A stretch of DNA of 64,000 nucleotides from an uncultured Gammaproteobacteria bacterium (lineage in GTDB: Bacteria > Patescibacteriota > Patescibacteriia > UBA9570 > XYC2-FULL-38-9). Positions 2,440-33,581 of this stretch are shown here, piece by piece. Position numbers and translations under genes: made by a program. The notes below the pieces were generated by a model. That model saw nothing but the letters and a program-made list of their open reading frames with translations. It made no database searches and was not told the origin of the DNA. Every line of letters starts with the position of its first letter. The stretch's first letter is position 1. The stretch is taken from positions 6,279 to 70,278 of the forward strand of contig CAZBLE010000003.1 of assembly GCA_964492735.1 (NCBI GenBank). Direction: 5' to 3'.

Positions 2440-3801
2440 TCAAACTCCCAACTCTTCAACCGCTGCTCGAAACTGATCTCCCCGATCTTCGTAATTTTTG
2501 AATATCGAATAACTTGGCGCAGCACATGACAGAAGCGCAACACCATCGGATGGTGTGTTCGCATAGGCAAACTCAACAGCCTCACGCATTGATTCTGTTT
2601 CAAAAAATTGCGTCCCGTATGCCACTTCCCCCCACTGCTCTCGAATGGTTTTTCCAGAATCTGGAAATAGAATAATATTTTTAATCTCTCGACGTTTGAG
2701 CTCGGCAATCAGCTCTGTAAAGTCATACCCCCGATCTAAGCCTCCCAAAAAAATCGTCTGGACCGCATCAATTGATCGCAATGCCGCAAGTGTCGCCTCT
2801 GGAGTTGTCGCGAGTGAATCATTCACAAACGTCACGCCTTTATATGTCCCAATAAGTTCTAAACGATGTGGTAATGGCTTAAAGGTTTTGAGTGCTTGTG
2901 CAATGGCTTCATTTTCTACCCGTAATTGTTTTGCGGCTGTGATAGCGAGTAATATATTTTTTGTATTATGCTCTCCAAGTAATTTACAATCTGAACGTGG
3001 AGCAATTTCTTCTGCATCAAAAAACAATAACCCATCACGAGAAGAAGCACCTTCGTGCACATTCGCCGCTGGCACAGGCAATGGTCGTGCGGCGGACTGA
3101 TCTACTCGAGCACACAATTCTGTGCTCGCGGCATTATAAATCACTAACTGCAATGCTGACTGCATTGTCGTAACACGTAATTTATCGCGGTAATACTCTT
3201 CAATGCTTCCATGGTAATCAATGTGTTCAGGAAATAACTCAGTAAGCACCGCAATCCCTGGTCCGCGATCCAATAACCGCGCTTGATAGCTACTAGTTTC
3301 TACGACATACACATCTTCAACTGTATTATGCTGCGCTAGCATTTCCACGCTAGAAATACCAATGTTCCCTACAAAATGCGCTTGCTTGCCTCCAGCGATC
3401 AACATGTCATAAATCAATGATGAAGTTGTCGACTTCCCTTTTGATCCAGTAACCATAATCACCGTCCCAAGGCATTCTCGTAAAAAAATCGCCGTTGCAT
3501 TTGTCATCAGACGTGCCGTTGCGAGCAATGGTGTTGTTGGTGGAATTCCAGGAGACACAACAACCAAATCCCATTCTTCTAAAGTTTCTGGGTATTTTTT
3601 ACCATAGAGCTCTGTCACTCCAGGCAGTGCAAATCGCACCTTCTGCTCATCTGCAATGGTCACTTCAATATCTGGGTATGCTGTTCGAAAATACATTGCC
3701 GCACCTTGCCCTTCTCGGCCCGCACCCAAAATTAATACACGCTTGCCGGCATGATGCTCAAAAAAGCTGTCGAGTTTTTCTGAATACAATTGTTCACTCA
3801 T
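2440..3801 (-). CDS. murD: UDP-N-acetylmuramoyl-L-alanine--glutamate ligase (MurD family; could be a MurD2-type L-Glu ligase)
   Basis: 453 aa. N-terminal Rossmann-like GAGREGQG, Mur-ligase P-loop TGSKGKST, and VVETSSYQ. Its start ATG overlaps the stop of the upstream ORF (ATGA). Confidence 0.85.
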   Translation of the reverse strand: MSEQLYSEKLDSFFEHHAGKRVLILGAGREGQGAAMYFRTAYPDIEVTIADEQKVRFALPGVTELYGKKYPETLEEWDLVVVSPGIPPTTPLLATARLMTNATAIFLRECLGTVIMVTGSKGKSTTSSLIYDMLIAGGKQAHFVGNIGISSVEMLAQHNTVEDVYVVETSSYQARLLDRGPGIAVLTELFPEHIDYHGSIEEYYRDKLRVTTMQSALQLVIYNAASTELCARVDQSAARPLPVPAANVHEGASSRDGLLFFDAEEIAPRSDCKLLGEHNTKNILLAITAAKQLRVENEAIAQALKTFKPLPHRLELIGTYKGVTFVNDSLATTPEATLAALRSIDAVQTIFLGGLDRGYDFTELIAELKRREIKNIILFPDSGKTIREQWGEVAYGTQFFETESMREAVEFAYANTPSDGVALLSCAAPSYSIFKNYEDRGDQFRAAVEELGV

Positions 3802-5174
3802 AAAATTGATTGTTTCATAATTTCAATAGCTGGGGCAAATTGCTGAGGAATGTGACTTACATCTCCAAACGCACGTACATCTTGTAATGCTGTTTCAGCA
3901 TCAAGCTCTGCATGAATGCGGTTATATGCCTGAATCAATATATCATTTACATAATCTGATTGAACACTTAATTGCTCCAATGCAATAATCATTTCGTTTG
4001 GTGTGCCGACACACTCAAATGGCTTAAACGCAGAAATCCCAAGAAGTTCTAAAAACACTTCTTCGTTTATGGCGTTTTCTAATGGGTTACTACCCATAAT
4101 TGCAATAAGCTCTTGTTTTGACATGTGTGGCGCTAAGAGCGTTCCAACAAAGACACACTTTGGACAGACTCCGCACCAATAGGCCGTGCTTGTAGTAGGT
4201 ACTGATGAAGTTTGTGTAAAATTCCGATTACAACTACTAAAGAGTCCTGACCATTTTTCACAATCTTGAATAAATAATTTGGTAATTTGAAATTCGTATA
4301 ATGGTCGCAATAGACTGCAATAAGCAACAGGAATTGCATGAAGCGAAAGATGCTCTTGCAACATAGTTTCAAATTCAAGACTCTTACTCCATTGGTGATT
4401 AATTTCTTCGCCAAGATATTGCACGTTTCCATAATTTGCACTGCGCTCATTACTCAAGACAACAGATGAATGACCATTCAACACCGCAACCGCGATACTG
4501 CTCAAAGCATAGATAACAGAAATAGGAATGTGCCCATTATATGCACCTGTACGATTCAGCTCAAATAATTGCGGATCGATTGTTCTCAACACACGATGAT
4601 GTGGCGTCCCAATTTTTTTCACCTGCTCTTCAATAATTGGATACACACCAAGACTCACTGTTTCAAATGCTATTCCTGCGCGCTGTAAAATACCAATGGT
4701 TGTCAGCGAATCCTTTCCTCCGCCAAGTGGAACCAGGACAGCTGCTGTGTGCGCAAGAGAATCTACTGACTCGGGCTTCGGCGCAATAACCTCATCTGTT
4801 GATGATGGAAATTGCACAAGTCCGTGAAAATCAATTCTATTTTGATAAAAAAATTCTCCCAGTCCTTTTGTATACACTGTGTTCCAAAATTCCGCATCTG
4901 CTTTTGAGAGTCTGCCTGACTGCACTTGCAATTGTTGAGAACACGCTGCTTTCCAATAACTCATGCCCAATGCAAGATGCAGATCAAATAACACACGTTG
5001 AAATGCCGCTGTGTTCCCCTGCGTCCCAGGTGCGTCAAATTGAACCGTTTCTGTAAAATGGACTGACTCTTTCCCTTGTTCTTCTATCCGATAGAAAAAA
5101 TGCGCAATCTTTTTGCCTGCGTCAAAATCAAATGACTCAAAAATAAACGTGGAATTGCTGGTAAACATACGCAA
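3798..5174 (-). CDS. PP-loop (SGGxDS-type) ATP pyrophosphatase superfamily protein, translationally coupled to murD; candidate MurL-like glutamate epimerase
   Basis: 458 aa. Has VLVPLGGGKDSLTT (PP-loop) near residue 150 and a C-terminal CGVCPKC cysteine cluster. Stop overlaps the murD start (ATGA at 3798-3801). Confidence 0.6.
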   Translation of the reverse strand: MRMFTSNSTFIFESFDFDAGKKIAHFFYRIEEQGKESVHFTETVQFDAPGTQGNTAAFQRVLFDLHLALGMSYWKAACSQQLQVQSGRLSKADAEFWNTVYTKGLGEFFYQNRIDFHGLVQFPSSTDEVIAPKPESVDSLAHTAAVLVPLGGGKDSLTTIGILQRAGIAFETVSLGVYPIIEEQVKKIGTPHHRVLRTIDPQLFELNRTGAYNGHIPISVIYALSSIAVAVLNGHSSVVLSNERSANYGNVQYLGEEINHQWSKSLEFETMLQEHLSLHAIPVAYCSLLRPLYEFQITKLFIQDCEKWSGLFSSCNRNFTQTSSVPTTSTAYWCGVCPKCVFVGTLLAPHMSKQELIAIMGSNPLENAINEEVFLELLGISAFKPFECVGTPNEMIIALEQLSVQSDYVNDILIQAYNRIHAELDAETALQDVRAFGDVSHIPQQFAPAIEIMKQSIL

Positions 5175-6369: not shown

Positions 6370-8487
6370 TTACACCTCAATAATAACAGGCAAGATCATT
6401 GGTTTACGCTGTGTGCGCTCAAACAAGAACATGCCTAAGTCATCGCGTAATTTATTTTTGATATAGGCAGCATTTGGTGTTTCATTTTGAAGATGTGGTG
6501 ACACAATATCAACAACTTTCTTCCGCGCATCATCCATTAATTGAGTACTTGATTTCGCGTATACAAATCCACGTGAAATGATGTCTGGTGTTCCAATGAC
6601 TTTTCCAGATTTCGCATCAAGCGTCATGATCACAACCAACATTCCATCTTCAGACAATAATTGACGATCACGCAGTACAACTTCAGAAATATCACCAACA
6701 CCAAGGCCGTCGACAAACACGTAATCAGATACAATCTTTTCGTCTGTTAAACGTCCTTCGCCATTCATGAATTCCATCACCTGCCCGTTACTGGTAATAA
6801 AGACTTTGTCTTCAGTCCATCCGAGCTCGCGAGCCACTAACCCATTGTCATGCAACAAATGAAGATTTCCTTCAACTGGTACATAATATTTTGGATTCAC
6901 CATCCGCAATAACAATTTAATGTCTTCTTTTTGCGCATGACCACCGGCATGGACATCCATCATTTGATAATGAATCACTGTCGCACCTTGGCGAATCAAT
7001 AAGTCTTTCAAAGATTGGACAGAACGTTCATTGCCAGGGACAACTGATGAACTGAAAATCACCATATCACCAGCATGTACTTTGAAGAAACGATGCTCCC
7101 CTTGCGCAATACGCATCATTGAAGCATTTTCCTCGCCTTGCGCACCTGTTCCGACGATCAACAATTTTTCTGGAGACAGACGCTCTGCATCTTCAGCCTT
7201 AATAATTGTGTCATTTTTCACCGTTAAATACCCGAGTTGTTTTGCGATCTCAACGTTTGTTTTCATTGAAAAACCTTCAAGCACAACTTTACGTCCGAGC
7301 TTCTCCGCACTCCACAGCAGCTGCTGCACGCGATTTAAACTCGATGCGAATGTCCCAACAATAATGCGGCCCTTCGCCTTCGACATAATGTCTTCAATGT
7401 TTTGGCCGATGGTACTTTCAGAAATTTGTTGACCTGGTTTACTTGCATTTGTTGAATCACCAAGCAGTGCCAAAATACCTTCTTGTCCGAGACGTGTCAG
7501 TTTTGCAAAATCAGTCACCTGATCACCAATTGGTTGTAAATCAAATTTAAAGTCACCGGTATGTAAAATTGTTCCTTCTGGAGTTCGCACAACGATCGCC
7601 AATGAATCTGGGATACTGTGATTAATCCGCACAAATTCGACAATCAAGTTTCCAAGATGGAGCTGACCATCAATATCCACCTGACGCAAATCTAATTTTG
7701 GTGTATGTGCAAAATCATCTTGGCGTTTCGCAATTAACCCCAAAGAAAGTGGTGCTGAGAAAATTGGTGGGTTATGCAATAACGGCGCTAAATGTGGAAT
7801 TGCTCCAATATGATCATAATGACCATGGGTAATAATAATACCGCGAATATTTTTTTCTTTTCCTTTCAAGTACGACACATTTGGAATAACGTAATCGATT
7901 CCTGGCATTTCTTCTTCTGGAAACTGAAGACCACAATCAATCAAAATGATATCTTCACCATATTCGATTAATGTCATGTTCCGACCGACTTCTTCCGCGC
8001 CACCAACGACGATTACGCGCAATTTTGTCTTACCGTCAGACTCCATTGGTTTTAAAATTTTTGCAGTACCTGCTGGACTTGGCATTCCTGTGCCACCGTG
8101 TTCCCCTGGTTTTTTCCAATTACGTGCAATGTCTTTATCAACACCTTTTGGTCGACGACCACCGCCCGCACGACCACCTTGGCCACCTCCGCCACGACGA
8201 TTTCCACCGCCTCCGTTGCCATTACCGCCTGGGCGACGATTTTGTCCACCTTGACCACCTGTAGGACGACCACCTGCTGGGGCTGGTTTTTTTGCGGGTG
8301 CTAAAATTGTATCAATTGCACCTGGTTGAATTGGACGTGTGCGTCCAGCTGGAGCGCGCATGACTTGTGTATTTTGTCGCGCTGTTTGCGCGGCATCTCC
8401 TGTGGCACCAGTCGTTTTGCGACGAATGTCTGTTAAAAAGCGAGACTTTCCCGCGGGTTGTGTTTGTTGTGTAGAATTTGTATTCAT
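6370..8487 (-). CDS. rnj: ribonuclease J (metallo-beta-lactamase/beta-CASP RNase) with ~150-aa Gly/Arg-rich N-terminal extension
   Basis: 705 aa. HGHYDHIGA metallo-beta-lactamase motif within the RNase J core. N-terminus contains GGQGGQNRRPGGNGNGGGGNRRGGGGQGGRAGGGRRP. Confidence 0.85.
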   Translation of the reverse strand: MNTNSTQQTQPAGKSRFLTDIRRKTTGATGDAAQTARQNTQVMRAPAGRTRPIQPGAIDTILAPAKKPAPAGGRPTGGQGGQNRRPGGNGNGGGGNRRGGGGQGGRAGGGRRPKGVDKDIARNWKKPGEHGGTGMPSPAGTAKILKPMESDGKTKLRVIVVGGAEEVGRNMTLIEYGEDIILIDCGLQFPEEEMPGIDYVIPNVSYLKGKEKNIRGIIITHGHYDHIGAIPHLAPLLHNPPIFSAPLSLGLIAKRQDDFAHTPKLDLRQVDIDGQLHLGNLIVEFVRINHSIPDSLAIVVRTPEGTILHTGDFKFDLQPIGDQVTDFAKLTRLGQEGILALLGDSTNASKPGQQISESTIGQNIEDIMSKAKGRIIVGTFASSLNRVQQLLWSAEKLGRKVVLEGFSMKTNVEIAKQLGYLTVKNDTIIKAEDAERLSPEKLLIVGTGAQGEENASMMRIAQGEHRFFKVHAGDMVIFSSSVVPGNERSVQSLKDLLIRQGATVIHYQMMDVHAGGHAQKEDIKLLLRMVNPKYYVPVEGNLHLLHDNGLVARELGWTEDKVFITSNGQVMEFMNGEGRLTDEKIVSDYVFVDGLGVGDISEVVLRDRQLLSEDGMLVVIMTLDAKSGKVIGTPDIISRGFVYAKSSTQLMDDARKKVVDIVSPHLQNETPNAAYIKNKLRDDLGMFLFERTQRKPMILPVIIEV

Positions 8488-10758: not shown

Positions 10759-13700
10759 TTACTGTAATAATGAATTTACATCTGCCACAACTGGGCTACG
10801 TTCATCTACATTTGCAAACTGCTTTGTTGAACGAAAAACCGGAATATCTGTTGTTTTTCCATTCACTACAAAACGAAAATACAATGTATGGTCTAAATTT
10901 GCCGACACACTGACCGGAATAAATTCAAACTGCGCGGAGGCAGTTTTGTAAGACATTATCAGTTGGAAATCATTGAAGTCGTTATCAGTACCGTCTTCGA
11001 ATTTTAATAACGTCTGACCACGTGCAAGTGAGACAGATTGGGCCTTTGGACTGTACTGAGCACTGCTTCGTTCATTACCAAAACGGATAAAGCTTTGAAA
11101 GCGTGCATCTTGAAGAGAAAATTGTACTTTTAATTTTTTGTTTTTTGTTGTGCGGTTACGAGCCGTTACATTATAGACATCTTTTCCTCCTGTCGCTTTA
11201 CTTGCTACGGTTAATGTCCGAGCAGATTTTTTTGCCGGGATATCTTTTACGACATACGAAACCGTAATCGTTCGCGTTGCACCTACTGCAAGTGGTTTAT
11301 TTTTTAATACATTATTCCAGACAAGTGTTCCTTTCTTTTTTGTTGAATTTGGCTTCACTGTACCTTTTTTAAACTTCAAGGTTGCCTTTGGATATGTTTG
11401 AGTAAGTTTTAATTTCGTTAAACTTGCTTCACCCGTATTTTTAATCTTCACTGTATATTTCACTGTCTTGCCTTTTGCAACAGTCGGATATTTTCCTTTT
11501 TTCGCTTTTGGTGAGATGAGCTTTTGCTGAATAGTATATGACGATGTCACTGATGCACGAGTAAATGTCACACTTGTTGCAGAACTTACGTTCCCTGCCG
11601 CATCCATTGCGACAATGCTAATTGCCTGAGACCCTACAGCAAGCGCACTTGTCGCTGTACAATTCCATGTACCATCGCTGCCAACGGTCGTTGTGCACAG
11701 TGTATTACTATTATTGTCACGAACAATGACAGTCGCAAGAGCCTCGGCCGTTCCTTGGAAGGTTGGTGTTTTAGTTTGAACAACGCCTGTGCTTGTTACA
11801 ATAGACGCATTACCACCGTTACTCGCAACAATCACCGGTGCATTTGGTGCAGTTGTGTCAGATGATGGAGTCGGACTTGGTGTAGTAGCAACAATCACAT
11901 AGCCAGCTTGTGTTGCTGGTGTCGCGACATTTCCAAGCGCATCTTGTGCAGCAATTTTCAAATTTCCTGAACTGGTAATTGCAATTGTACAATCTACTTG
12001 TGTACCAGATGTTTGTGTACAAGAAATTGCATCATGGCCAGCAGTTGTTGCAGCATCAACAGTCACTGCGCTACTACTAATCGCTCGAGCGTCTGTGACA
12101 CGAATTGTTGTATTTGTAATTGTTGTTGTCGCAGATAGTGTTGGAGCTGTAATTGCAATCACTGGTGCGGTTGCATCAATCGTAAATGAAGCAACGTTTA
12201 ATACATTCGATGCGTTACCTGCAGCGTCAGTGACTGTAATCGTACAATTTGTGTGTGCGCCATCAGCAAGCTCTGCAAATGTGATTGTGTTTGAGCCAAC
12301 CGAAGCTGACACCGCACTTGATGCGCAATCCCCACCATATGAAAGACTTCCTGCTTCATTGGTTGTGAATGTATAGTTCGGTGTGTTATCTGTGGTTGGA
12401 GTTGAAACAGGCGTCACGACTAAGATTGTTGGCGCTACTGCATCAATCGTAAATGACGCAACGTTTAATGTATTTGAAACATTTCCAATTGTATCAGTTA
12501 CAGTGATTGTACAATTTGTATGCGCGCCGTCAGCGAGTGTATTAAAAGTAATGGTATTTGAACCTGAACTTGCAGATGTTGTTGCGGATGAACAATCACC
12601 ACCATAGGAAATCGTTCCCGCTTCATTGGTTGTGAATGTATAACTTGGTGTGTTATCTGTGGTGGGAGTTGAAACAGGTGTTACTTCTGAGATTGTTGGT
12701 GCAGTTGCATCAACCGTAAATGAAGCGACATTTAACGTATTTGATGCATTGCCTGCAGCGTCGGTTACAGTGATTGTACAGTTTGTATGTGCACCATCAG
12801 AAAGTGTATTAAAAGTAATGGTATTTGAACCTGAATTTGCAGATGTTGTTGCGGATGAACAATCACCACCATAGGAAATCGTTCCTGCTTCGTTGGTTGT
12901 GAATGTATAACTTGGTGTGTTATCTGTGGTTGGAGTTGAAACAGGCGTTACTTCTGAGATTGTCGGCGCTCCTGAATCAATGACAATATTTTTATTCGCC
13001 GCAAGCGTTGTTCCAGGAGTAAAATCAGTCAATGTATTTAACGCATGATCTTTAATCGTTCCGGAAATAGTTGCATCTAAGTCAGCAGTTGTGTCCCCTT
13101 CTTGTACAATATAATTACATGTTCCTGTTCGAGAATCGGTAATCGTAAATGTACATGTTTGATCAGTCGTTCCTGTTTCGAGCGTCACGGTCACACTCCC
13201 AGTTGAAGTCACTGGCTCAGAAAATGTCACATCAATATCAATCGAATCCCCAGGGCTATATGAACCATTTGCCGCATCTGAAGAAATAGAATCGATAACA
13301 GGGGTCGCACCAGTCTCAACAACTAGTGTAACTGCGAGACCACTCATCGCATTTCTCAATTGTGTTATCCCTACAATTGAAGGGGGTGTTGTTGTTGAAT
13401 TGCCTAATGTATCAATGATTGAATATGAAAGAATGCTCGCAATTTGTAAATCTGAATCATCTTCTCCAGAAGCTGAATCTCCCACTACATAGTTTGCTGC
13501 AATAATATTTCCACCATATGCCGGGTTGTAAGCAAGATCCACTTCAACACCATTCGTTAAACGGACAGTCATGATTGAGGCTGAATTCAACGTTCTTGCA
13601 AATTGCGCCCCAATGAGAATTGTTTGACCAGTTGTGTAGGTTCCGCTTGTAGTAAGTGTCGCAAACTGTGTCAAAGCTGGCGCACTGGTTGCAATAGTAA

Positions 13701-16037: not shown

Positions 16038-16252
16038 CACTTTTTGCAAGTGTGGCTAATGCTAGGGAAATGATGAGTGTGTAACAGGAGTTGGTGAGTG
16101 TCGTTGTCTTTTAAATAGAGAAAACCTGGCGCATGAGATCAGAGATGTGATCATGCATGCGTCAGGGAGAGGCCAGCTGCTGTGTCGTTGTGATCTGTGT
16201 GTAGATCAGCGAACGATGTGAGCTGCCTCTCAACCGGTGTTGCTCAGCTGTT

Positions 16253-18274
16253 TTACGGCTGAGCGAACAGCGGGTGCGGGCCGTCGGCGATGGCCCAGTT
16301 GTGTGTGGTCTGGCTACCGTCGGGCCAAACGACCTCAACTTGCGCCGAAGCCTGGTTGCTGCCCAGGTCGAGGCAGAAGTCGGAGTCGAGGCCGTTCCGG
16401 TAGCCGGTCGGCTGCTCCCGGAGGACCTCAACGCCGCCCACGGTGACAGTCACGCGCGACAACGAGCCGTTTCGCGGGACAGTCACGCCGTTGCCGGCCA
16501 AGCTTCCGCAAAAGCGGTTTCCGGTTGCGATGCTGTCGTTGCGGAGGTACTTGGGATTCCCCTCATACACTCCGCTGACAACGCAGTCAGCGTCGCCGTC
16601 GTTGTCGAAGTCCGCGCAGACCATCTGGCGATGGTTGCCGCGCGTGGCGTCGGCGCCCATCGTGTCGTTGATGCCGATGCGAGACGGCGGGTAGGGGTAC
16701 GTCATCCCCATCTGGCCGCCCGTGCCGCGAACCGCCATATGCGCCGTGATCGGCTGGCCGTTGGTCGGGCACTCCGCAGCGCCAGGGCAGGTGCCGTTGT
16801 ACCCCCGGCCGTCGTGCCCCCACGGGGTGAGGAACGACGTCGCGACTTGCCCGTCCGGCAAGTAGCGCGTCGTCTCGCCGCCCATTTCCCAAGGGATGGG
16901 GCGCACGGGCGGACCCGGCTCGAAAACGCACGCTGCGCCGAGGCCCTGGCCGCCAGCCAGGGACCAGTCGGCCAACTGCGGGACGTTCCCGGTGTTGTCG
17001 AACCAGAGGTCCGACCCTGGATCGCGGCCGTAAGCCGAGAAACAGAGGTCGTTGCTGCTGGTCGACACCAACAGGTCGGGCCAGTTGTCGCCGTCGAGAC
17101 TGGTAAAGAGGCCGCCCATCGGGCGGCTCCAAGCCAATTGACTCCAACCAGAAGTCCCGTCCTGCTCCACGAAGCGTGGCCAGCCGTCGGTGGTCGTGCC
17201 GTCCCGGACGAAAACGCCGGTCGGCGATCCGCCCATGGGCGATCCCATCGCCCAGATGGTCAGCGACCCGTCGGGGCCGGGCAAGGCCAGCCAGGTGTAG
17301 AGATCGCTTCTCGCGCCAGGGAGGCGCTCGAAGTTTTGACTCGCAACCCAGCCTCCGCCCGGCTGCTGGAAGAACGTCCACGGCAGACTGTCTCGCGACA
17401 TCAAGAGAATGTCGAGCAGCCCATTTCCGTCGATGTCCCAGACGCCCGGGATCGGGCGGATCGTGAACCCGGCACCGCGCCAGGCGGCGTCAAAGGAAGG
17501 GTCAGGCGCCCAGCGACCGTCCGGCTGACGCTCAAAAACGAGCCCAAGCGGCGAAGCCGCCAGGATCTCGACCTGCCCGTCGCCGTCGAGGTCGACGAGG
17601 TCAAGGTAGTTGACCTCGGTCGCCGTTGAGATCCGCGGGTCGAACCCACGCTCGAGGAGACCTGCAGCGACGAAGTCGCCAATCCCGTCCCGAGGGACGG
17701 TCCAGGTTCCCGTCGCCGGGTCGAGCGTGCGGATCGCTCCGCGATAGCTCGACCCGACCCACCGCATGTCAAAGAGACACACCAAGGAGTCGTCCGCCGG
17801 ACCAGCCCAACCGCCCTTGGTGCAGGCGGCGGGATGCCGCTGCACCGGGCGCGGCCCAATGTCGTCCTCCAACCACCCCGCCATGGGCTGGCAGTTGGTG
17901 GGGACGTCGGGCGGACAGATGTCGCCCGCGAGCTCGGTGTAGGTCAGCTGCGGGTAGTCCCCGAGCTGCGTTCCGAGCGCGGTGGGAACGACGGGTGGGA
18001 CGACGTCGGTGTCAGCCGTGTCGACGGTGTCGGTGTCATCCGTGACCTCCCACGCGGGAGTCGTGTCGGTGCCTGCCGACTCATCCGAGTCGTCCGTGCC
18101 ACCTCCCGCCTCAGGCGGGATGGTGTCGTCGGAGGACGGGGGAATCGTGTCCGTCGTGTCGACGGTGTCGATGTCGGGGTGGGGCTGGCGGAAGCCAGCT
18201 CCCACGTCCTCGATGACCTGACAACCGGAGGTGAAAGCGAAGAAGCCAAAAACCAGAGCGCGAAGGGTCGTCAT
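16253..18274 (-). CDS. FG-GAP/VCBS-repeat lipoprotein (ASPIC/UnbV, CRTAC1-like), GC-rich foreign gene
   Basis: ~67 % GC against a ~45 % backbone. Lipobox-type signal MTTLRALVFGFFAFTSGC. Repeated DxDGDG loops (VDLDGDGQVE, WDIDGNGLLD, CADFDNDGDADC). GGAG Shine-Dalgarno sits 6 nt before the ATG at 18274. The longest ORF extends to 18346. Confidence 0.75.
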   Translation of the reverse strand: MTTLRALVFGFFAFTSGCQVIEDVGAGFRQPHPDIDTVDTTDTIPPSSDDTIPPEAGGGTDDSDESAGTDTTPAWEVTDDTDTVDTADTDVVPPVVPTALGTQLGDYPQLTYTELAGDICPPDVPTNCQPMAGWLEDDIGPRPVQRHPAACTKGGWAGPADDSLVCLFDMRWVGSSYRGAIRTLDPATGTWTVPRDGIGDFVAAGLLERGFDPRISTATEVNYLDLVDLDGDGQVEILAASPLGLVFERQPDGRWAPDPSFDAAWRGAGFTIRPIPGVWDIDGNGLLDILLMSRDSLPWTFFQQPGGGWVASQNFERLPGARSDLYTWLALPGPDGSLTIWAMGSPMGGSPTGVFVRDGTTTDGWPRFVEQDGTSGWSQLAWSRPMGGLFTSLDGDNWPDLLVSTSSNDLCFSAYGRDPGSDLWFDNTGNVPQLADWSLAGGQGLGAACVFEPGPPVRPIPWEMGGETTRYLPDGQVATSFLTPWGHDGRGYNGTCPGAAECPTNGQPITAHMAVRGTGGQMGMTYPYPPSRIGINDTMGADATRGNHRQMVCADFDNDGDADCVVSGVYEGNPKYLRNDSIATGNRFCGSLAGNGVTVPRNGSLSRVTVTVGGVEVLREQPTGYRNGLDSDFCLDLGSNQASAQVEVVWPDGSQTTHNWAIADGPHPLFAQP

Positions 18275-18714
18275 GGGAACTCCAGAGCTCGCACGCAGCG
18301 AGTTCATGGGTGGAACGAGACTGCAAACGGCACTATGCCATCGCAATCATTCTCTCTATCATCCAAATACCCCACGACAAAAATGCAATTACTGCATCGC
18401 TGTCCTGAGGCCTCTGGATGATAGAGACGAAACTAGATGAAAAATTCAATTTTCAAAGAATGCAAAAAATTCCAAGTTGGAACTTGCACTACTTACTATA
18501 TCCCATATTTTGACAAAAAAGTCAAGCATTTTTTGGCTAACCTCTGTTGATATTTTCTTAATACGAAAAAGGCCAGAAATACGCAGATGCACGGGGAGCT
18601 GGTCGCTCGCAGTTGTACAAAAGCCTATTCCTGGCGTGCCGAGAGACTCTCGGTAACTTACCTCAATCAGCCTGACTGACATTTCCGCCGTTATCAGCCG
18701 GGCCGATTTTTTTC

Positions 18715-21507: not shown

Positions 21508-22044
21508 ATGGCGACAACACAAAAAAGAAAAGCAGTGAGCAAGACACGAAAACGCACCGTCACAATTGAAGACGAAGTGTTGTCATTAGCGAGTTCTCCA
21601 ATGACAAAAACTGTGCAGCCAAAGAAAAAGGCAGCTGCGAAAACAAAAGCGAAAAAAACAACCGCGACAACAGCTCGCGCGAAAGCAGTAGCTGTGAAAA
21701 AAACAACGGTAAAAAAAGCAGCTACAAAATCAAAAGTAACGGCCAAAAAAGTTACGAGTAAAAAACCAACAGCAACAAAAACTGTTGCTAAAAAAACACC
21801 TGCGCGAAAAACAGTGGCAAAAAAATCAACCACTCGCACAGTCCGAACACGCAAACCTGCAACCATCCGCGAAACAATCGCTGCTGAAATGCGCGCTGTT
21901 GAGACAGAAACAAAACAGATTGCCAAAAATCCAACACTCCACAAAATGGTTCGCTTCTCAGAGCTCTATGTGTTGTCTGTGCTTGTGACTGTTATTATTC
22001 TTGCAACAGTGACTTGGACACAAACTGTACTCAACCTCCTGTAA
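21508..22044 (+). CDS. lysine/alanine/threonine-rich histone H1-like basic protein with C-terminal transmembrane anchor
   Basis: 178 aa. Strong RBS GGAGGAAAAATTATG. AKKT/KKxxAK repeats make up most of the protein. C-terminal hydrophobic helix LYVLSVLVTVIILATVTW. Confidence 0.6.
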   Translation: MATTQKRKAVSKTRKRTVTIEDEVLSLASSPMTKTVQPKKKAAAKTKAKKTTATTARAKAVAVKKTTVKKAATKSKVTAKKVTSKKPTATKTVAKKTPARKTVAKKSTTRTVRTRKPATIRETIAAEMRAVETETKQIAKNPTLHKMVRFSELYVLSVLVTVIILATVTWTQTVLNLL

Positions 22045-27526: not shown

Positions 27527-29131
27527 TTATTGCGCTTCCATGGCACGACCCGTTTCTTTGGCTGCTTCAAAGATAGACGTCGTAAGAGCTTTCCAATGTT
27601 CCTGGCTGAAGAAATTTGGATCTGGATGCTCAATCTGCTCAGCGATTAACACTTCCATCGTATCCGTCACTTCATCATTCACTGACTGGATTGTTTTGAC
27701 CACTTGATTTTTGGTCGTATCCACAACAACGGTTGTACGAACAGCATCTGGCTGATCTGTATATCGATAGACAACGGTCATAAGCGCTCCATCCGTCACT
27801 TGAGATTCCACAACTCCATAATTACGAAATTGATCAATATACCGCTCTGGACTGAGTGCCCATTTCTGCATATTGGTCTCCCAATTTTTATCAGCACCTT
27901 GAAGCGCATCAGCTTGATAGTCCAGAATTAACTGATCATTAAACGCTTGCACCTCTTCAGCGGTGAGTGCTGTGACTGTATTTGTTTCAAGATCATAATG
28001 ATAGACATCGGATCGCATAACAGTTTCAAACGTTGCTTCAGAAAAATTTCCTTGTCCAAGCTCGACAATTTTTTCATAAGACAACTGAACTAAAAATTGG
28101 GTTTCACGAGCAATATTTTCTGGTTCATTCGGCAGCGTTTCCATATTGCGGGTGCTTCCAAAATTTCCAATAACCGCAAACTGATTTTCATACCCTTCTG
28201 TCGTTTTCTTATTTGCAACAACATCTTCTGGATGCAATTGCGGATTAAAGAGAAATGGCTTCCAATGCGTTTTGTCGCGCGTTGTTGGCTTGTCTGTTAG
28301 TGTATTATAGGTATTTGTCCATACTCGAAGACGTGGCATGATTGTTCCAACTGGCTCGACCTCTCCGTGTGATAGAGCTTCTGGCATTTCTGGCAACGGT
28401 GCCGATGTTGTGACTGACAATGTTTTCACTGGGCCATCATATCCTTCATGTTCAATAACCATTGGCTTCATCACTGTAATTTTTTCACCTATCAGAGCTG
28501 GCGTACGTGCTGCAACATTCACATCAACGCGATTACATGCAACTGCCATATCTGTCACGTGCGCATCATCAAAGAAACAATTTTCAGAAGTTTGCGCATT
28601 CATGACATGATTCAGGGTTGATACAATTCCTGCATATGGCTCTCCATTGAGCGGCTGCGTACGAATACTCATCATACCCACGAGTGGTTGACTCCACGTT
28701 TCAACAACTTGATTTCCATCCCATTGCTTTGAGATTGTTGTATAGTTAATTTTCATATGACGAATCGCTTGAGCGGATGTTCCAAATGTATTGGTAATAG
28801 AATCCGCAACAACTGACTCGGCTGATTGGTTTGTGATATTTGCAATTGGTGAATTGGTTCGTGCAAATTTTTGACCTGCCTGCTGAATAGCGAGTGGTCC
28901 ACCTGCGAGAACAAATACTAACGCTCCAACAGCAAGTGCGCTGGCTGGAATCAGTAATCGCAACCACCGACGGCGATATGTTGATGTGTGCATAGAATAT
29001 ATCTGATAAGTTCGATACGCTTGAATTGTTGCATAACGCAATTCTTCAGTGTGGTCTGTGCGCTCTGGAATCGGAACAGCCCGCAATAGCTGCTCGAGTG
29101 ATTCTTCAAATTGTGATGGTGAGTGTTTCAT
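27527..29131 (-). CDS. membrane-anchored anti-sigma-factor-like protein with large extracytoplasmic domain
   Basis: 534 aa. Single TM helix (LLIPASALAVGALVFVLAGG) after a ~60-aa cytoplasmic N-terminus. Lies immediately downstream of an ECF sigma gene. Paralogous to 29800..31395 (shared C-terminal NPxxFFSxxxWK). Confidence 0.6.
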   Translation of the reverse strand: MKHSPSQFEESLEQLLRAVPIPERTDHTEELRYATIQAYRTYQIYSMHTSTYRRRWLRLLIPASALAVGALVFVLAGGPLAIQQAGQKFARTNSPIANITNQSAESVVADSITNTFGTSAQAIRHMKINYTTISKQWDGNQVVETWSQPLVGMMSIRTQPLNGEPYAGIVSTLNHVMNAQTSENCFFDDAHVTDMAVACNRVDVNVAARTPALIGEKITVMKPMVIEHEGYDGPVKTLSVTTSAPLPEMPEALSHGEVEPVGTIMPRLRVWTNTYNTLTDKPTTRDKTHWKPFLFNPQLHPEDVVANKKTTEGYENQFAVIGNFGSTRNMETLPNEPENIARETQFLVQLSYEKIVELGQGNFSEATFETVMRSDVYHYDLETNTVTALTAEEVQAFNDQLILDYQADALQGADKNWETNMQKWALSPERYIDQFRNYGVVESQVTDGALMTVVYRYTDQPDAVRTTVVVDTTKNQVVKTIQSVNDEVTDTMEVLIAEQIEHPDPNFFSQEHWKALTTSIFEAAKETGRAMEAQ

Positions 29132-29137
29132 AAAAAG

Positions 29138-29647
29138 TTACACAATTGATTGAACAGACTGAACACTGTTTTTTAAACGCTTGATCGCCTGACTCAACAT
29201 GCTACTGACTGTTTTTTGATCAATGTCGAGCATCTCCGCAATTTCCACATTTGAAAAATCGGATTGGTATCGCAGCAAAAGAACCTCGCGCTGACGGTCA
29301 GTCAGGCTCCCAAGATGCTGTTGCAGCATTTCCAGATTCATCGCCGTGTCGAGCGCAATGTCTGGCATCTCTGCTGTATCAGCGACATCATAATCCGCGA
29401 TATCGTCTGTTTGCTTTTGTGTGCGGTAGTGGTCGATGACTGTATTGCGCGCAATGGTGTACATCCATTTACGAAATGCCAGCTCGTCATTTTTTGGCGC
29501 AAGAGCGTCATAATGGCGAACGACTTTTTCAAAAATCGCAGATACCAAATCTTCGGTTGTTTCCATGTGACTCACACGCAAATACACAAAACGATAAATC
29601 GGTTTATGATACGTGTCGAATAGCGCGGCGATTTGTTCAAGCGTCAT
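29138..29647 (-). CDS. RNA polymerase ECF-type sigma-70 factor
   Basis: 169 aa. Sigma-70 region 2 (PIYRFVYLRV, IARNTVIDHYR) and region 4 HTH (DRQREVLLLRY...IAEMLDIDQKTVSS). Confidence 0.85.
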   Translation of the reverse strand: MTLEQIAALFDTYHKPIYRFVYLRVSHMETTEDLVSAIFEKVVRHYDALAPKNDELAFRKWMYTIARNTVIDHYRTQKQTDDIADYDVADTAEMPDIALDTAMNLEMLQQHLGSLTDRQREVLLLRYQSDFSNVEIAEMLDIDQKTVSSMLSQAIKRLKNSVQSVQSIV

Positions 29648-29799
29648 GCTGATAGATTAATTATGTGAAGCATACTCTGCAGAGTACAACGTGTCACGAT
29701 AAACATGACTACACAGACTACGACGACCGAGCAGCGAAAGTACGTATGACTATCAAAAAAGCCCCTATTTCAGGGCTTTTTTATGTGGTATTCGTATCT

Positions 29800-31395
29800 T
29801 TAGTCCTTGATAATCTCCTTGGCACGCTCTTTCCATGCCTTCTCAGAAAAAAACGTGTCTGGATTATCTGTTGTTGTTTTGAGCGCGTCGAATGTTGTGG
29901 TGTAGATTGTTGCTTGCTGTGTATTTGGATAATCATACCGCTCAATAATTGCCGTCAATAACTGAGTCTGACTATCAACACGCACTTCTGTTGTTCCAAT
30001 CATGTGCATCGATGGATTATCCGCATTCCACTCTTGGGTCACGCTATACACATATTCAGTTCCTTCAATGCGTGGCGTGACAGTATGGAGTTGCGCAAAC
30101 ACAGCAGATCCGCCAGCAATGTAATTGAAGAACGTCTCTCCTGAATTACTGGTAAAAATCTCTTTTCGTACTGCTAAGCGTCGTGCATTAAACTGCTCGA
30201 TATCTTCAGGTGTTTGAGTAAGCGGATGCACACTCTCAAATCGCCATTCATCAGAAAATTTCATTTGAAACACTTGAGATGCAGCAGAAAATAATTTTGA
30301 ATCATACTGCTTTTCTTGAACTGTTGTTGCTCCAAGAAGCGCTGTGTTGAGCTGCACAATTTGTAGTTGTACTTCAGAAAAAATACGTACCGGATTTTGT
30401 GTCGCCTCTGTTAACGTATCATGCGCATAACGCCCATCCAACATGAATGCAAATGATTGTTTATACCGACCATTCACTGGAACGTTCCACTCAGGATCTG
30501 CAATTCCTCCAGAGACATTTCCAAGTGGAGATAATGCAATTGGAGCAAAGGCAATATTATTTTGCGCATCAATAAACTCAGAAAGATATTTCACATAAGA
30601 CGGTTCAGCGATCAGAATGCCGAGATTGCTTGGGTCAATCGGCACTGCAGTTGTAAATGACATCTGCTCACTATCAAGGTCTGTATTATATGAAAAGTCT
30701 TGAATATCAAGTGGTGGTTGTTTTTCTGCGAAACCAACATAATCTGCAATACCACCTGAGTCACAGACATGCTCATTCGTAGCTAAATCTTCATTTGCAC
30801 TTTTTATTGATTGTGCATTGTGCATATCAACGCCGATGACACAATTTTCAATTGATTGCGCGTCAGCGTTCAAGTTTGTCATACGATACCTCTTTTCTTC
30901 TTGGACACTTGGTCCTGTTTTGCGCAGGTATCCAGTGAATGCGTGTTGTGCAATATAATATTCCTGATCCGTCCGCGCCGTAACTTCTTTTACTTCTGAC
31001 TGATTACCATTTGTATTCATGTCTTCACGAACCGTATGAAACACAACATGACGAATACCATCGGTAGTAGAAAAAGTGTGTTGAATTGATTCTGCAATAA
31101 GTTCTTGCGGAACAATGGATTCAATAATTGAATTCGTATTGTTCGTACGTGCTGCAAACTCACTGCGGAGCGCTGGGCTACCAACTGTAATCACACCAAT
31201 CGCAACAGCAGCCAAAGCAAATCCTGGCACTGCGAACCGAGAAACAAACCGACGTAGTCTCTGGCGCTGCGTAGTCGCCTCTTCTGTTGCAGACTCGAAC
31301 ATTCGAGCTTGGATAGCCGCTCTGTGAGCGTCGTGCTCTGGTACTGCTACACGCGCAAACATATCTTTTAATTGTTCTTCTGGTAAACGTTTCAT
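29800..31395 (-). CDS. membrane-anchored anti-sigma-factor-like protein, paralog of 27527..29131
   Basis: 531 aa. TM helix (FAVPGFALAAVAIGVITVG). Overlaps the upstream sigma gene by 4 nt. C-terminal conserved motif DNPDTFFSEKAWK. Confidence 0.6.
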   Translation of the reverse strand: MKRLPEEQLKDMFARVAVPEHDAHRAAIQARMFESATEEATTQRQRLRRFVSRFAVPGFALAAVAIGVITVGSPALRSEFAARTNNTNSIIESIVPQELIAESIQHTFSTTDGIRHVVFHTVREDMNTNGNQSEVKEVTARTDQEYYIAQHAFTGYLRKTGPSVQEEKRYRMTNLNADAQSIENCVIGVDMHNAQSIKSANEDLATNEHVCDSGGIADYVGFAEKQPPLDIQDFSYNTDLDSEQMSFTTAVPIDPSNLGILIAEPSYVKYLSEFIDAQNNIAFAPIALSPLGNVSGGIADPEWNVPVNGRYKQSFAFMLDGRYAHDTLTEATQNPVRIFSEVQLQIVQLNTALLGATTVQEKQYDSKLFSAASQVFQMKFSDEWRFESVHPLTQTPEDIEQFNARRLAVRKEIFTSNSGETFFNYIAGGSAVFAQLHTVTPRIEGTEYVYSVTQEWNADNPSMHMIGTTEVRVDSQTQLLTAIIERYDYPNTQQATIYTTTFDALKTTTDNPDTFFSEKAWKERAKEIIKD

Positions 31396-31901
31396 ATGGT
31401 TGTTGAAAAATGATTGCGAAGTTTATGAATAGCTTTTGAGATAGTTGATGCAACGGCCTTTTGGTCAATTCCCATTACAGAGGCAATTTCAGTATTTGTC
31501 AGATCTGCTTCAAGGCGTAATAACACACATTCTTTTTGACGATCTGGAAGCAGCGCGATGGCTTCGTGGACCTGTTCGAGTGAAAGCGTGTGGTCAACAA
31601 TTGCGTCTGGAAGTGGCTCTGTATCGATGATGGCAAGATCTTCAATTGGTGTATCGCTGTGCGGTCGATTGGCTTGCTTGCGATAATGATCAATGAGCGT
31701 GTTCCGCGCGATCGCGAAAATCCACGATTTTTCTGTCGCTCCAGGTTGCTGTTTGAAGCGCGGAAAATGTTTGATGACTTTTTCAAAAATATGTGAAACC
31801 AAGTCTTCAGCTGTCTGTTTGTGGCCCACGCGAAAATAGACGAAGCGGTAGACCGGCTCGTAATATGTTTGGAACAAGATCATTAATTCATGTTGAGACA
31901 T
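31392..31901 (-). CDS. RNA polymerase ECF-type sigma-70 factor (second copy)
   Basis: 169 aa, ~50 % identical to 29138..29647 (PVYRFVYFRV, IARNTLIDHYRKQ, DRQKECVLLRL...IASVMGIDQKAVAS). Confidence 0.85.
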   Translation of the reverse strand: MSQHELMILFQTYYEPVYRFVYFRVGHKQTAEDLVSHIFEKVIKHFPRFKQQPGATEKSWIFAIARNTLIDHYRKQANRPHSDTPIEDLAIIDTEPLPDAIVDHTLSLEQVHEAIALLPDRQKECVLLRLEADLTNTEIASVMGIDQKAVASTISKAIHKLRNHFSTTI

Positions 31902-32142
31902 AGGATATGTGTGCAGCGCACATGACTGATAACGACAAGTTGCGCAGAATACGTCAAAGGGAGTTTATGAGAGGCGTTATCCGTTACAAAATACATTTTT
32001 TTTGAGTGATTGTAATAACCAAAATGTGCCGCGTGATGCATTCCTTGGGAGAATATGCAAAACGCGACACCGAAGGCGGCCTCAAACAGCTGAACGATGT
32101 GATGTCGTTGTGACATCGCTCAGGTGTGAGGCAAAGGCCTTC

Positions 32143-33129: not shown

Positions 33130-33365
33130 CTTGACCTCAATGTCTTTTATTTAGGCTGGCAGACTCACCAGTAAGACTTTTTTCAAAACGTATCAATGAA
33201 CAAAAAAGCACCACAATGGTGCATAAAACGGACAAAAATGTAGCTCAAAATAGGTAAAATGTCAAGCAATGGCGCATTATCCTTATAATAGAAAAAATGG
33301 ACGAATCCTGCATAGGCATTGTCAGTCACCGTTAGTCGCAGATTAGGCTGTACTTGCCCTTTACG

Positions 33366-33415
33366 ACCCGAAGCTGCGGGGTAGCTTCTCCACGTCTTTG
33401 CGATAAAGCACGTGG
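33366..33415. other. pair of adjacent GC-rich stem-loops in the 452-nt divergent intergenic region upstream of uvrA (possible structured RNA or regulatory element)
   Basis: GAAGCT-gcggggt-AGCTTC at 33370..33388 and CCACGTCTTT-gcgat-AAAGcACGTGG at 33390..33415. Confidence 0.25.
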
Positions 33416-33581
33416 CGTCCCGACACTGACACGCTATCATCAGAATTCGCCCGAGGCATACTGTCTACTGTATTTTATAAAAAAATGCAAGCCCCTGCGC
33501 TCCTGCCCATGGTTGACCAACCCCAAAAAAGCGAGTATTCTACAACACTACTTTCACTTATTACACATCTCATTTACACCC

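What the first reader, a model, noticed from the sequence alone, without database searches (positions are those of the whole stretch)
2440..5174. murD translationally coupled to a PP-loop ATPase gene: candidate MurD2/MurL-type L-Glu addition and epimerisation route
The MurD-family ligase start codon overlaps the stop of an upstream 458-aa protein (ATGA). That protein carries an SGGxDS-type PP-loop (LGGGKDS) and a C-terminal CxxCxxC cluster. It is not a tRNA-modification enzyme by domain order, since the PP-loop is central at ~150 aa rather than N-terminal. An ATP-dependent MurL epimerase has been described as acting with a MurD2-type ligase in organisms that lack glutamate racemase. A conserved, coupled MurD plus adenylating PP-loop enzyme fits that logic and would be unusual outside the taxa where it was described.
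Basis: partly seen in the sequence, partly recalled or inferred. Interest (0 to 1): 0.65.

Follow-up and report, generated by a model that had tools for sequence, protein, structure and literature searches.

The report
MurL/MurD2 D-glutamate route, CPR bacterium
The two overlapping genes are a good match to the known MurL epimerase and MurD2 ligase, which build the D-glutamate of the cell wall without a glutamate racemase; here they sit in an uncultivated CPR (Patescibacteria) bacterium, a group where this pair turns out to be common and is often fused into one protein.

Summary
Two minus-strand ORFs, 3798-5174 (458 aa from TTG, 456 aa from ATG 5168) and 2440-3801 (453 aa), overlap by ATGA.

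The downstream Mur ligase has Glu192 and Arg357 at the two positions whose mutation switches Xanthomonas MurD2 from L-Glu to D-Glu. It also has the MurD2-type Pro429 and Tyr431, and lacks the canonical Lys319.

MurL is directly followed by MurD, or fused to it, in 74 of 77 evaluable species genomes, nearly all CPR. The window comes from a relative of Kerfeldbacteria.

The family has about 2,500 clusters at 50% identity, and Pfam and JGI already label such proteins MurL. No paper I could search reports the pathway in CPR.

Absence of murI could be checked only in the window. Verdict: a new member of a known kind, of moderate interest.

The parts
3798..5174 (-). [quoted passage not shown] It is 458 aa from TTG 5174; the more likely start is ATG 5168, giving 456 aa.
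   Evidence: The ORF is listed. NF041275 MurL matches with E=2e-107 over the full length. The identical protein P0001 carries PF26299 MurL_N and PF26298 MurL_epimerase_C. It is 38% identical to X. sacchari MurL. The AF2 model has pLDDT 90.9.
4707..4724 (-). PP-loop motif GGGKDS (residues 149-154), the predicted ATP pyrophosphatase site.
   Evidence: The motif is invariant in 25 and in 85 family members. It aligns to the SGGKDS of TtuA. The predicted fold matches PP-loop enzymes.
4383..4400 (-). Invariant NHQWSK motif (residues 257-262). His258 and Lys262 are candidate acid/base residues (inferred).
4155..4238 (-). Four invariant cysteines: C313 in the SCN motif, and C332, C335 and C338 in WCxxCxKC. 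This is predicted to be a QueC-like metal site, probably Zn.
   Evidence: The cysteines are invariant and the coordinates come. QueC is among the best fold matches. The metal itself is inferred.
3999..4025 (-). Invariant KPFECVGTP motif (residues 382-390) containing Cys386, a candidate catalytic residue for the epimerisation (inferred).
3798..3801 (-). ATGA overlap of the murL stop codon and the murD start codon.
   Evidence: Relatives have similar 4- to 23-nt overlaps.
2440..3801 (-). [quoted passage not shown]
   Evidence: TIGR01087 scores 311 bits and the protein has the MurD-like_N, Mur_ligase_M and Mur_ligase_C domains. The catalytic residues K115, N138, E157, H183 and K198 (E. coli numbering) are conserved.
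3217..3234 (-). FPEHID: Glu192 at the position of E. coli MurD Asp182 and X. oryzae MurD2 Glu197.
   Evidence: The mutational basis is given in PMC8788868.
2800..2823 (-). NDSLATTP: Leu330 replaces the canonical Lys319 (E. coli numbering).
   Evidence: The K319T mutation lets E. coli MurD accept L-Glu.
2719..2745 (-). GGLDRGYDF: Arg357 at the position of E. coli Lys348 and MurD2 Arg358.
2506..2526 (-). CAAPSYS: Pro429 and Tyr431 at the positions of E. coli Ala414 and Leu416 (MurD2 Pro433 and Phe435).

Best explanation
The two genes encode the known alternative route to the D-glutamate residue of the peptidoglycan stem peptide. The proposed steps, all inferred by homology, are as follows. The downstream Mur ligase (MurD2 type) adds L-glutamate, not D-glutamate, to UDP-MurNAc-L-Ala. 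[quoted passage not shown] MurE can then continue the pathway.

For the MurL mechanism, the central QueC-like PP-loop domain (GGGKDS) would bind ATP and adenylate the alpha-carboxylate of the terminal L-Glu. Activation makes the alpha-proton acidic, and a route through an oxazolone is also conceivable. Conserved residues (Cys386, His258, Lys262) would invert the centre, and hydrolysis of the adenylate would release the D-product. The four invariant cysteines probably hold a structural Zn as in QueC.

Shown here: the ORFs and their overlap, family membership by sequence, the predicted fold, the signature residues, and the conservation and fusion of the pair. Inferred: all the chemistry, the metal, the catalytic residues, and that this is the cell's only D-Glu source.
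For: MurL identity: NF041275 matches with E=2e-107 and 359 bits, covering residues 7-451 of the protein and positions 7-444 of the 447-position model. The identical database protein carries Pfam MurL_N and MurL_epimerase_C. It is 38% identical over 422 aa (E=1e-75) to the PGAP-annotated murL of Xanthomonas sacchari. Of 49 positions conserved at 97% or more in 85 family members, 48 are shared with that protein.

MurD2 identity: the window protein has E192 and R357, matching X. oryzae E197 and R358. The E197D/R358K double mutant of X. oryzae MurD2 switches fully to D-Glu. It also has P429 and Y431 (MurD2 has P433 and F435), and Leu in place of Lys319. X. sacchari MurD2 reads E, I, R, P, F at these five positions, whereas E. 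coli MurD reads D, K, K, A, L. The same signature is found in 82 MurL-linked MurDs and in the 120 best homologues.

Linkage: among the 80 best genome loci, MurD lies immediately downstream in 43 and is fused with MurL in 31. Three more have it 0.6-3.5 kb downstream, and three contigs end too early to tell. A fused gene was also called independently by JGI. In a complete Roizmanbacteria chromosome the pair occupies the murD slot of the dcw cluster. The murL-then-murD order is the same as in Xanthomonas. There is no murI or D-amino-acid aminotransferase in the window.
Against: No activity has been measured for any CPR member. The NF041275 score (359 bits) is below its equivalog cut-off of 700, although that model is trained on Xanthomonadales only. 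Overall similarity does not separate MurD2 from MurD: the window ligase scores best against the canonical S. agalactiae MurD in the PDB, and it is 31% identical to X. sacchari MurD2 against 29% to E. coli MurD. Arg at position 348 and an aromatic residue at 416 also occur in D-Glu-specific MurDs such as 3lk7. About a fifth of MurL-linked MurDs keep Asp at position 182. Some MurL homologues stand alone without a MurD, for example on Pseudonocardia plasmids, so the family is not tied to one context. Absence of murI is unknown beyond 64 kb.
Confidence: 0.85

Rival explanations
1. The ligase is an ordinary D-Glu-adding MurD, and the PP-loop protein has an unrelated job such as a QueC-like or tRNA-modifying activity. 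On this view the adjacency is incidental.
For: The ligase passes the murD equivalog model TIGR01087, and NCBI names its homologues D-glutamate ligase. The best fold matches of the PP-loop protein are Cap9 and QueC, and JGI named one homologue QueC.
Against: The full-length match is to MurL, not QueC, and Pfam gives no QueC hit. The Xanthomonas MurD2 is itself annotated as a D-Glu ligase, so the name carries no weight. The MurD2 signature residues are present. Adjacency or fusion is seen in 74 of 77 loci.
Confidence: 0.04
2. The upstream protein belongs to the MurL family but does different chemistry on the stem peptide in CPR. One example would be amidation of the adenylated Glu alpha-carboxylate to iso-glutamine, as PP-loop amidotransferases and MurT/GatD do. 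Another would be action on a different residue.
For: Most PP-loop enzymes that adenylate carboxylates end in amide or nitrile formation; QueC, NAD synthetase and asparagine synthetase are all among the fold matches. Identity to the characterised clade is only about 38%. The score is below the equivalog cut-off.
Against: 48 of 49 near-invariant positions are shared with Xanthomonas MurL. No glutaminase partner is adjacent. The partner ligase carries the L-Glu signature, which makes sense only if an epimerase follows. Distant actinobacterial orthologues (Micromonospora, Salinispora) were shown to be epimerases (PMC8788868).
Confidence: 0.06
3. The pair is a working MurD2/MurL route but is not the only D-Glu source: the genome also has murI or a D-amino-acid aminotransferase. 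This rivals the proposed physiological role, not the identity of the genes.
For: Only 64 kb of the genome was seen. From memory of the abstract of Penalver et al. 2024 (doi 10.1111/1462-2920.16621, not held; cited in PMC11974145), at least one CPR bacterium has an active MurI.
Against: There is no racemase in the window or in about 1 Mb of flanks of related loci. In described MurD2/MurL organisms the racemase is absent. An L-Glu-specific MurD would leave a racemase without a consumer unless a second murD exists.
Confidence: 0.15

Closest known systems
MurL (XOO_1319, EC 5.1.1.23) and MurD2 (XOO_1320, EC 6.3.2.53) of Xanthomonas oryzae; Feng et al. 2017, reviewed in PMC8788868 and PMC5808125
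   Same: The gene order is the same, murL then murD with overlapping ends. MurL homology covers the full length (38% identity to the X. sacchari orthologue). The same invariant motifs are present: GGGKDS, NHQWSK, SCN, WCxxCxKC and KPFECVG. The MurD2 specificity residues match (E, R, P, aromatic) and Lys319 is likewise lost.
   Different: The host is a CPR/Patescibacteria bacterium near Kerfeldbacteria, not a proteobacterium or a member of the Micromonosporaceae. Tyr replaces Phe at MurD2 position 435 and Leu replaces Ile at position 319. The score is below the Xanthomonadales equivalog cut-off. Many CPR relatives have the two enzymes fused. No biochemical data exist.
QueC (7-cyano-7-deazaguanine synthase, PDB 3bl5) and the QueC-like Cap9 (PDB 9nto)
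   Different: Identity is only 17% and there is no Pfam or NCBIfam QueC hit. MurL has an extra N-terminal domain of about 125 aa (MurL_N) and a helical C-terminal extension with the KPFECVG motif. The first PP-loop residue is Gly rather than Ser. The outcome is epimerisation plus hydrolysis, not amide or nitrile formation.
Canonical route: glutamate racemase MurI plus D-Glu-specific MurD (E. coli, PDB 1uag/2jff; S. agalactiae, PDB 3lk7)
   Same: [quoted passage not shown] The ligase has the same three-domain Mur ligase architecture and the same catalytic residues (K115, N138, E157, H183, K198).
   Different: Inversion happens after ligation, on the nucleotide-peptide, and costs an extra ATP. 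The ligase pocket differs at positions 182, 319, 348, 414 and 416. No racemase was seen in the window.

Membership tests
[quoted passage not shown] | Full-length sequence homology to characterised MurL | tested here: met
   NF041275 matches with E=2e-107 over residues 7-451. The protein is 38% identical to X. sacchari MurL with E=1e-75.
[quoted passage not shown] | Score above the NCBIfam equivalog cut-off (700 bits) | tested here: not met
   The score is 359 bits. The model is named and trained for Xanthomonadales, so a distant orthologue is expected to fall below the cut-off.
[quoted passage not shown] | Pfam architecture MurL_N (PF26299) plus MurL_epimerase_C (PF26298) | tested here: met
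   This comes from precomputed hits on the 100%-identical protein P0001, with the family names taken. The local Pfam copy lacks these two models.
[quoted passage not shown] | Conserved family motifs, including the PP-loop and the cysteine cluster | tested here: met
   49 near-invariant positions are all present in the window protein, and 48 of them in X. sacchari MurL.
[quoted passage not shown] | Genetic linkage to a MurD-family ligase | tested here: met
   There is an ATGA overlap in the window. MurD is adjacent or fused in 74 of 77 loci.
[quoted passage not shown] | ATP/Mg-dependent, AMP-forming, one-way L-to-D epimerisation | not testable with these tools
   This needs an enzyme assay. The activity is known for the Xanthomonas, Micromonospora and Salinispora proteins.
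[quoted passage not shown] | Genome lacks murI and a D-amino-acid aminotransferase | tested here: inconclusive
   Neither is present in the 64-kb window. The rest of the genome was not available.
[quoted passage not shown] | Mur ligase three-domain architecture with intact catalytic residues | tested here: met
   K115, N138, E157, H183 and K198 are conserved.
[quoted passage not shown] | Glu at position 197 and Arg at position 358 (X. oryzae numbering), the pair that sets L-Glu specificity | tested here: met
   The window protein has E192 and R357. The mutagenesis is described in PMC8788868.
[quoted passage not shown] | Pro433 and Phe435 in the Glu pocket | tested here: met
   The window protein has P429, and Y431 in place of Phe, a conservative change. 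Tyr is the commonest residue among MurL-linked MurDs.
[quoted passage not shown] | Preference for L-Glu over D-Glu | not testable with these tools
   This needs an enzyme assay.
PP-loop ATP pyrophosphatase superfamily | SGGxDS motif in a Rossmann-like alpha/beta fold | tested here: met
QueC family | Sequence membership in the QueC models of Pfam or NCBIfam | tested here: not met
   There is no Pfam hit at E<=1, and the only NCBIfam hit is MurL. The similarity is structural only, at 17% identity.

The most novel reading that the evidence does not exclude
MurD2/MurL, not glutamate racemase, is the usual source of peptidoglycan D-glutamate across the Candidate Phyla Radiation, and in many lineages it works as a single fused bifunctional MurL-MurD2 enzyme. 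This would account for the reported lack of D-Glu racemases in most CPR genomes. It would also turn a pathway described as confined to a few genera into one used by a large share of bacterial diversity. The open literature I could search does not report this, although Pfam and JGI labels already imply it.
Probability: 0.55. Interest if true: 0.6.

Novelty: new member of a known kind. Interest (0 to 1): 0.4.

Why it matters
The MurD2/MurL bypass was published as a curiosity of Xanthomonadales, a few Alphaproteobacteria and the Micromonosporaceae, and was proposed as a narrow-spectrum antibiotic target (PMC8788868). Three points follow from this window.

- The same two-gene unit, with the same specificity residues, is a standard part of the cell-wall toolkit of CPR bacteria. 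There it is often fused, and it sometimes sits in the murD slot of the dcw cluster.
- This gives a concrete, testable answer to how racemase-poor CPR genomes obtain D-Glu.
- NCBI names CPR MurD homologues D-glutamate ligases. The signature residues suggest that those linked to MurL add L-Glu instead.

The natural fusions also offer good material for solving the still-unknown MurL mechanism. The QueC-like PP-loop fold and the invariant Cys386, His258 and Lys262 give specific residues to test.

Tried and rejected
- **Identifying the source genome.** The look-up of encoding contigs on the identical proteins P0001 and P0121 found nothing on record. Cluster look-up gave no names. The window's own genome was not among the best 80 hits of the genome-contig scan. 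The lineage was therefore inferred from RecA and from synteny.
- **RNA markers.** There are no rRNA, tRNA or Rfam matches in the window.
- **Solved MurL or MurD2 structure.** None is in the PDB by sequence.
- **Local Pfam scan of MurL.** It gave no hit because the copy lacks PF26298 and PF26299.
- **Promoter and terminator scan.** Counts were at chance level and uninformative.
- **Foldseek against the AlphaFold database.** The library was not available.
- **Literature.** No open paper links MurL or MurD2 to CPR. The key racemase paper (Penalver 2024) is not held.
- **Reading it as a QueC or tRNA-thiolation enzyme.** Rejected, because the similarity is at superfamily level only.
- **Overall similarity as a MurD versus MurD2 discriminator.** Rejected, because it does not separate the two.
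- **Genome-wide murI co-occurrence.** This could not be tested, because only 10-kb flanks of public contigs can be read.
Full report
**Observation**

The minus strand carries two ORFs at exactly the stated coordinates. ORF 3798..5174 is 458 aa from a TTG start. The identical NCBI protein P0001 starts two codons later, at ATG 5168, and has 456 aa; homologues align to that start. ORF 2440..3801 is 453 aa. The first gene's stop and the second gene's start share ATGA at 3798-3801.

The upstream protein contains (L)GGGKDS at residues 148-154 and WCGVCPKC at residues 331-338 (456-aa numbering; window coordinates). A consensus scan found no terminator-like site between the genes that stands out from chance. 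Co-translation is therefore plausible but remains an inference.

**What the upstream protein is**

The local Pfam copy gives no hit. NCBIfam gives one hit: NF041275, 'MurL_Xanthmoales, UDP-N-acetyl-alpha-D-muramoyl-L-alanyl-L-glutamate epimerase'. It scores E=2e-107 and 359 bits, and covers residues 7-451 of the protein against positions 7-444 of the 447-position model. This is below the equivalog cut-off of 700, which is set for Xanthomonadales.

The 100%-identical database protein, like all 120 best homologues, carries the precomputed Pfam families PF26299 (MurL_N) and PF26298 (MurL_epimerase_C).

A Xanthomonas sacchari record filed as a plasmid holds a PGAP-annotated murL. The window protein is 38% identical to it over 422 residues, with E=1e-75.

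In an alignment of 85 family members, 49 positions are conserved at 97% or more. All 49 are present in the window protein, and 48 of them in the Xanthomonas protein. They include:
- GGGKDS (149-154)
- NHQWSK (257-262)
- SCN (312-314)
- WCxxCxKC (331-338)
- KPFxCVG..E (382-392)

**Fold and likely chemistry**

The family profile also hits the PP-loop segment of TtuA by sequence, with E=0.002: 'VSGGKDS' aligns with 'LGGGKDS'. No MurL structure is in the PDB.

QueC-type PP-loop enzymes adenylate a carboxylate and release AMP. That fits the published finding that Xanthomonas MurL consumes one ATP, forms AMP and works only in the L-to-D direction. The authors then noted that the protein 'lacks known conserved domains' (PMC8788868; PMC5808125).

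I infer the following steps:
- The PP-loop adenylates the alpha-carboxylate of the terminal L-Glu.
- The four invariant cysteines form a QueC-like metal site. Zn is more likely than Fe-S, because activity was obtained with only ATP and Mg.
- Cys386, His258 and Lys262 are candidates for proton exchange.
- Hydrolysis of the adenylate then releases the D-product.

**What the downstream protein is**

It has the three Mur ligase domains and passes the murD model TIGR01087 with 311 bits against a cut-off of 212. The catalytic residues K115, N138, E157, H183 and K198 (E. coli crystal numbering) are all conserved.

Overall similarity cannot tell MurD from MurD2:
- The best PDB match is the canonical S. 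agalactiae MurD, both for the window protein and for X. sacchari MurD2.
- The window ligase is 31% identical to X. sacchari MurD2 and 29% to E. coli MurD.

The published specificity residues do tell them apart. In X. oryzae MurD2, E197, R358, P433 and F435 replace E. coli D182, K348, A414 and L416. The E197D/R358K double mutant switches fully to D-Glu. In E. coli MurD, the K319T mutation allows L-Glu to be accepted.

Residues at the five positions (E. coli numbering):

| Protein | 182 | 319 | 348 | 414 | 416 | Source |
|---|---|---|---|---|---|---|
| Window ligase | E192 | L330 | R357 | P429 | Y431 | |
| X. sacchari MurD2 | E | I | R | P | F | |
| E. coli MurD | D | K | K | A | L | |
| S. agalactiae MurD | T | K | R | A | W | |
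| 7sir MurD | D | K | K | A | F | |

Pro at 414, loss of Lys319 and Glu at 182 are the informative differences.

**Conservation of the pair**

The best 80 loci are almost all CPR: Parcubacteria, Kerfeldbacteria, Peribacteria, Peregrinibacteria, Roizmanbacteria, Gracilibacteria, Woesebacteria, Levybacteria, Moranbacteria, Falkowbacteria, Uhrbacteria, Taylorbacteria, Staskawiczbacteria and Saccharibacteria. A few MAGs carry other phylum labels.

In those 80 loci:
- 43 have a MurD ORF immediately downstream on the same strand.
- 30 have one continuous MurL-MurD ORF of about 700-930 aa.
- 1 has the reverse fusion, MurD-MurL.
- 3 have MurD 0.6-3.5 kb downstream.
- 3 contigs end before a MurD could appear.

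That is 74 of 77 evaluable loci with MurD adjacent or fused. JGI independently called a 781-aa gene with MurL_N, MurL_epimerase_C, Mur_ligase_M and Mur_ligase_C.

Among 82 MurL-linked MurDs, counting aligned (non-gap) positions only:
- position 348 is Arg in 75 of 77
- position 414 is Pro in 74 of 76
- position 416 is Tyr or Phe in 72 of 75
- position 319 is Ile or Leu in 75 of 78, and never Lys
- position 182 is Glu in 62 and Asp in 19

The 120 best homologues of the window ligase show the same pattern.

In a complete Roizmanbacteria chromosome the gene order is murL-murD-ftsW-murG-..-ftsA-ftsZ, so the pair occupies the murD slot of the dcw cluster. The order murL-then-murD, with overlapping ends, is also that of Xanthomonas.

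**Source organism**

The window has no rRNA or tRNA genes. Its own genome could not be retrieved.

The best named RecA hits are Kerfeldbacteria, at 76-82% identity. A 90%-identical RecA lies on the same 267,582-bp contig that carries the closest syntenic locus, with the gene order SecG, SBP_bac_5, RNase J, TrpRS, MurL, MurD, iPGM. The window therefore comes from a Patescibacteria bacterium near Kerfeldbacteria.

**murI**

None of the larger ORFs of the window matches Asp/Glu racemase or class IV aminotransferase. A tblastn search with E. coli MurI finds nothing in the window at E<=10, and nothing convincing in the roughly 1 Mb of related loci fetched. This covers only part of the genome, so the test is inconclusive.

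**How common and how new**

The family has 2,476 clusters at 50% identity with E<=1e-3, and 1,113 with E<=1e-30. About 20 of the best 150 representatives are fusion-length. At 90% identity there are more than 7,600 clusters.

Published distribution lists name only Xanthomonadales, three alphaproteobacterial genera and the Micromonosporaceae, with weak hits in a fungus, cyanobacteria and an amoeba. No paper in the searchable library links MurL or MurD2 with CPR.

Pfam and JGI already tag CPR proteins as MurL. One JGI entry names the partner an 'L-glutamate ligase', whereas NCBI names these partners D-glutamate ligases.

From memory of its abstract, Penalver et al. 2024 state that most CPR bacteria lack D-Glu and D-Ala racemases, so that their peptidoglycan synthesis is unclear. 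That paper is not held and is cited in PMC11974145. The MurD2/MurL pair is an obvious candidate answer.

**Caveats**

- No CPR member has been assayed.
- Some MurL homologues stand alone, without a MurD, on Pseudonocardia plasmids. Context matters for function.
- A fifth of MurL-linked ligases keep Asp at position 182.

**Verdict**

It is a new member of a known kind in a lineage where the pathway has not been described in print, but where it is common. Interest is moderate (0.4). The wider reading, that this is the general D-Glu route of CPR and is often a fused enzyme, has a probability of about 0.55 and would deserve about 0.6.

Noticed in passing
L018, L028, L034, L041, L042, L044, L067, L075 and others (31 of L008-L087); L069 is in reverse order; L091:4001-6346: In many CPR genomes MurL and MurD form a single ORF of about 700-930 aa (a natural fusion). 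One Parcubacteria chromosome (OY970378.1) has the opposite domain order, MurD-MurL. About 20 of the 150 best cluster representatives are also fusion-length.
   Followed up: partly
window 16200-18300: A sharply bounded island has GC 0.65-0.70 against a background of 0.43. It holds one 697-aa ORF (16253..18346, minus strand) with FG-GAP repeats and an Asp/Thr-rich N-terminus. This could be recent foreign DNA or an assembly chimera. A milder GC rise (0.57) lies at 32000-34000, around a 328-aa ORF with no Pfam hit.
   Followed up: no
window 27527-31901: There is a tandem duplicated two-gene module on the minus strand: an ECF-type sigma factor (169 aa) followed by a protein of about 530 aa with no Pfam hit. 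The copies are 29138..29647 with 27527..29131, and 31392..31901 with 29800..31395. This may be a sigma/anti-sigma pair.
   Followed up: no
window 6370-8487: RNase J carries an N-terminal extension of about 150 aa rich in Gly, Arg and Pro, ahead of the metallo-beta-lactamase domain.
   Followed up: no
window 10759-15993: A 1,744-aa predicted surface protein has several near-identical repeats of about 100 aa ('ATAPTISEVTPVSTPTTDNTPSYTFTTNEAGTISYGGDCSS...'). Its homologue in the syntenic locus L003 carries the Big_6 and Big_13 domains.
   Followed up: no
L090:4977-6377 (Pseudonocardia alni plasmid pPaSha1); also hits H2 and H4: MurL-family homologues (29-32% identical) sit on actinobacterial plasmids with no MurD next to them; here the neighbour is a large WD40-repeat protein. 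They are annotated as hypothetical. The family may therefore include members with another role.
   Followed up: partly
L088 (NZ_CP010410.1, Xanthomonas sacchari 'plasmid', 508 kb): A record filed as a plasmid carries the essential murL-murD2 pair and lysA/aspartate kinase. It is probably a chromosome fragment or a chromid. PGAP names its MurD2 a 'D-glutamate ligase', the same probable misnomer seen for the CPR proteins.
   Followed up: no
L007:8001-16065 (CP065004.1, Roizmanbacteria): Here murL-murD lies inside the dcw cluster, followed by ftsW, murG, ftsA and ftsZ. In the window and in Kerfeldbacteria the pair instead sits between trpS and iPGM, away from any dcw genes.
   Followed up: partly
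window 21508-22044: A 178-aa Lys/Ala-rich ORF shows weak similarity to the histone H1-like nucleoprotein HC2 (E=5e-6, below the Pfam cut-off).
   Followed up: no
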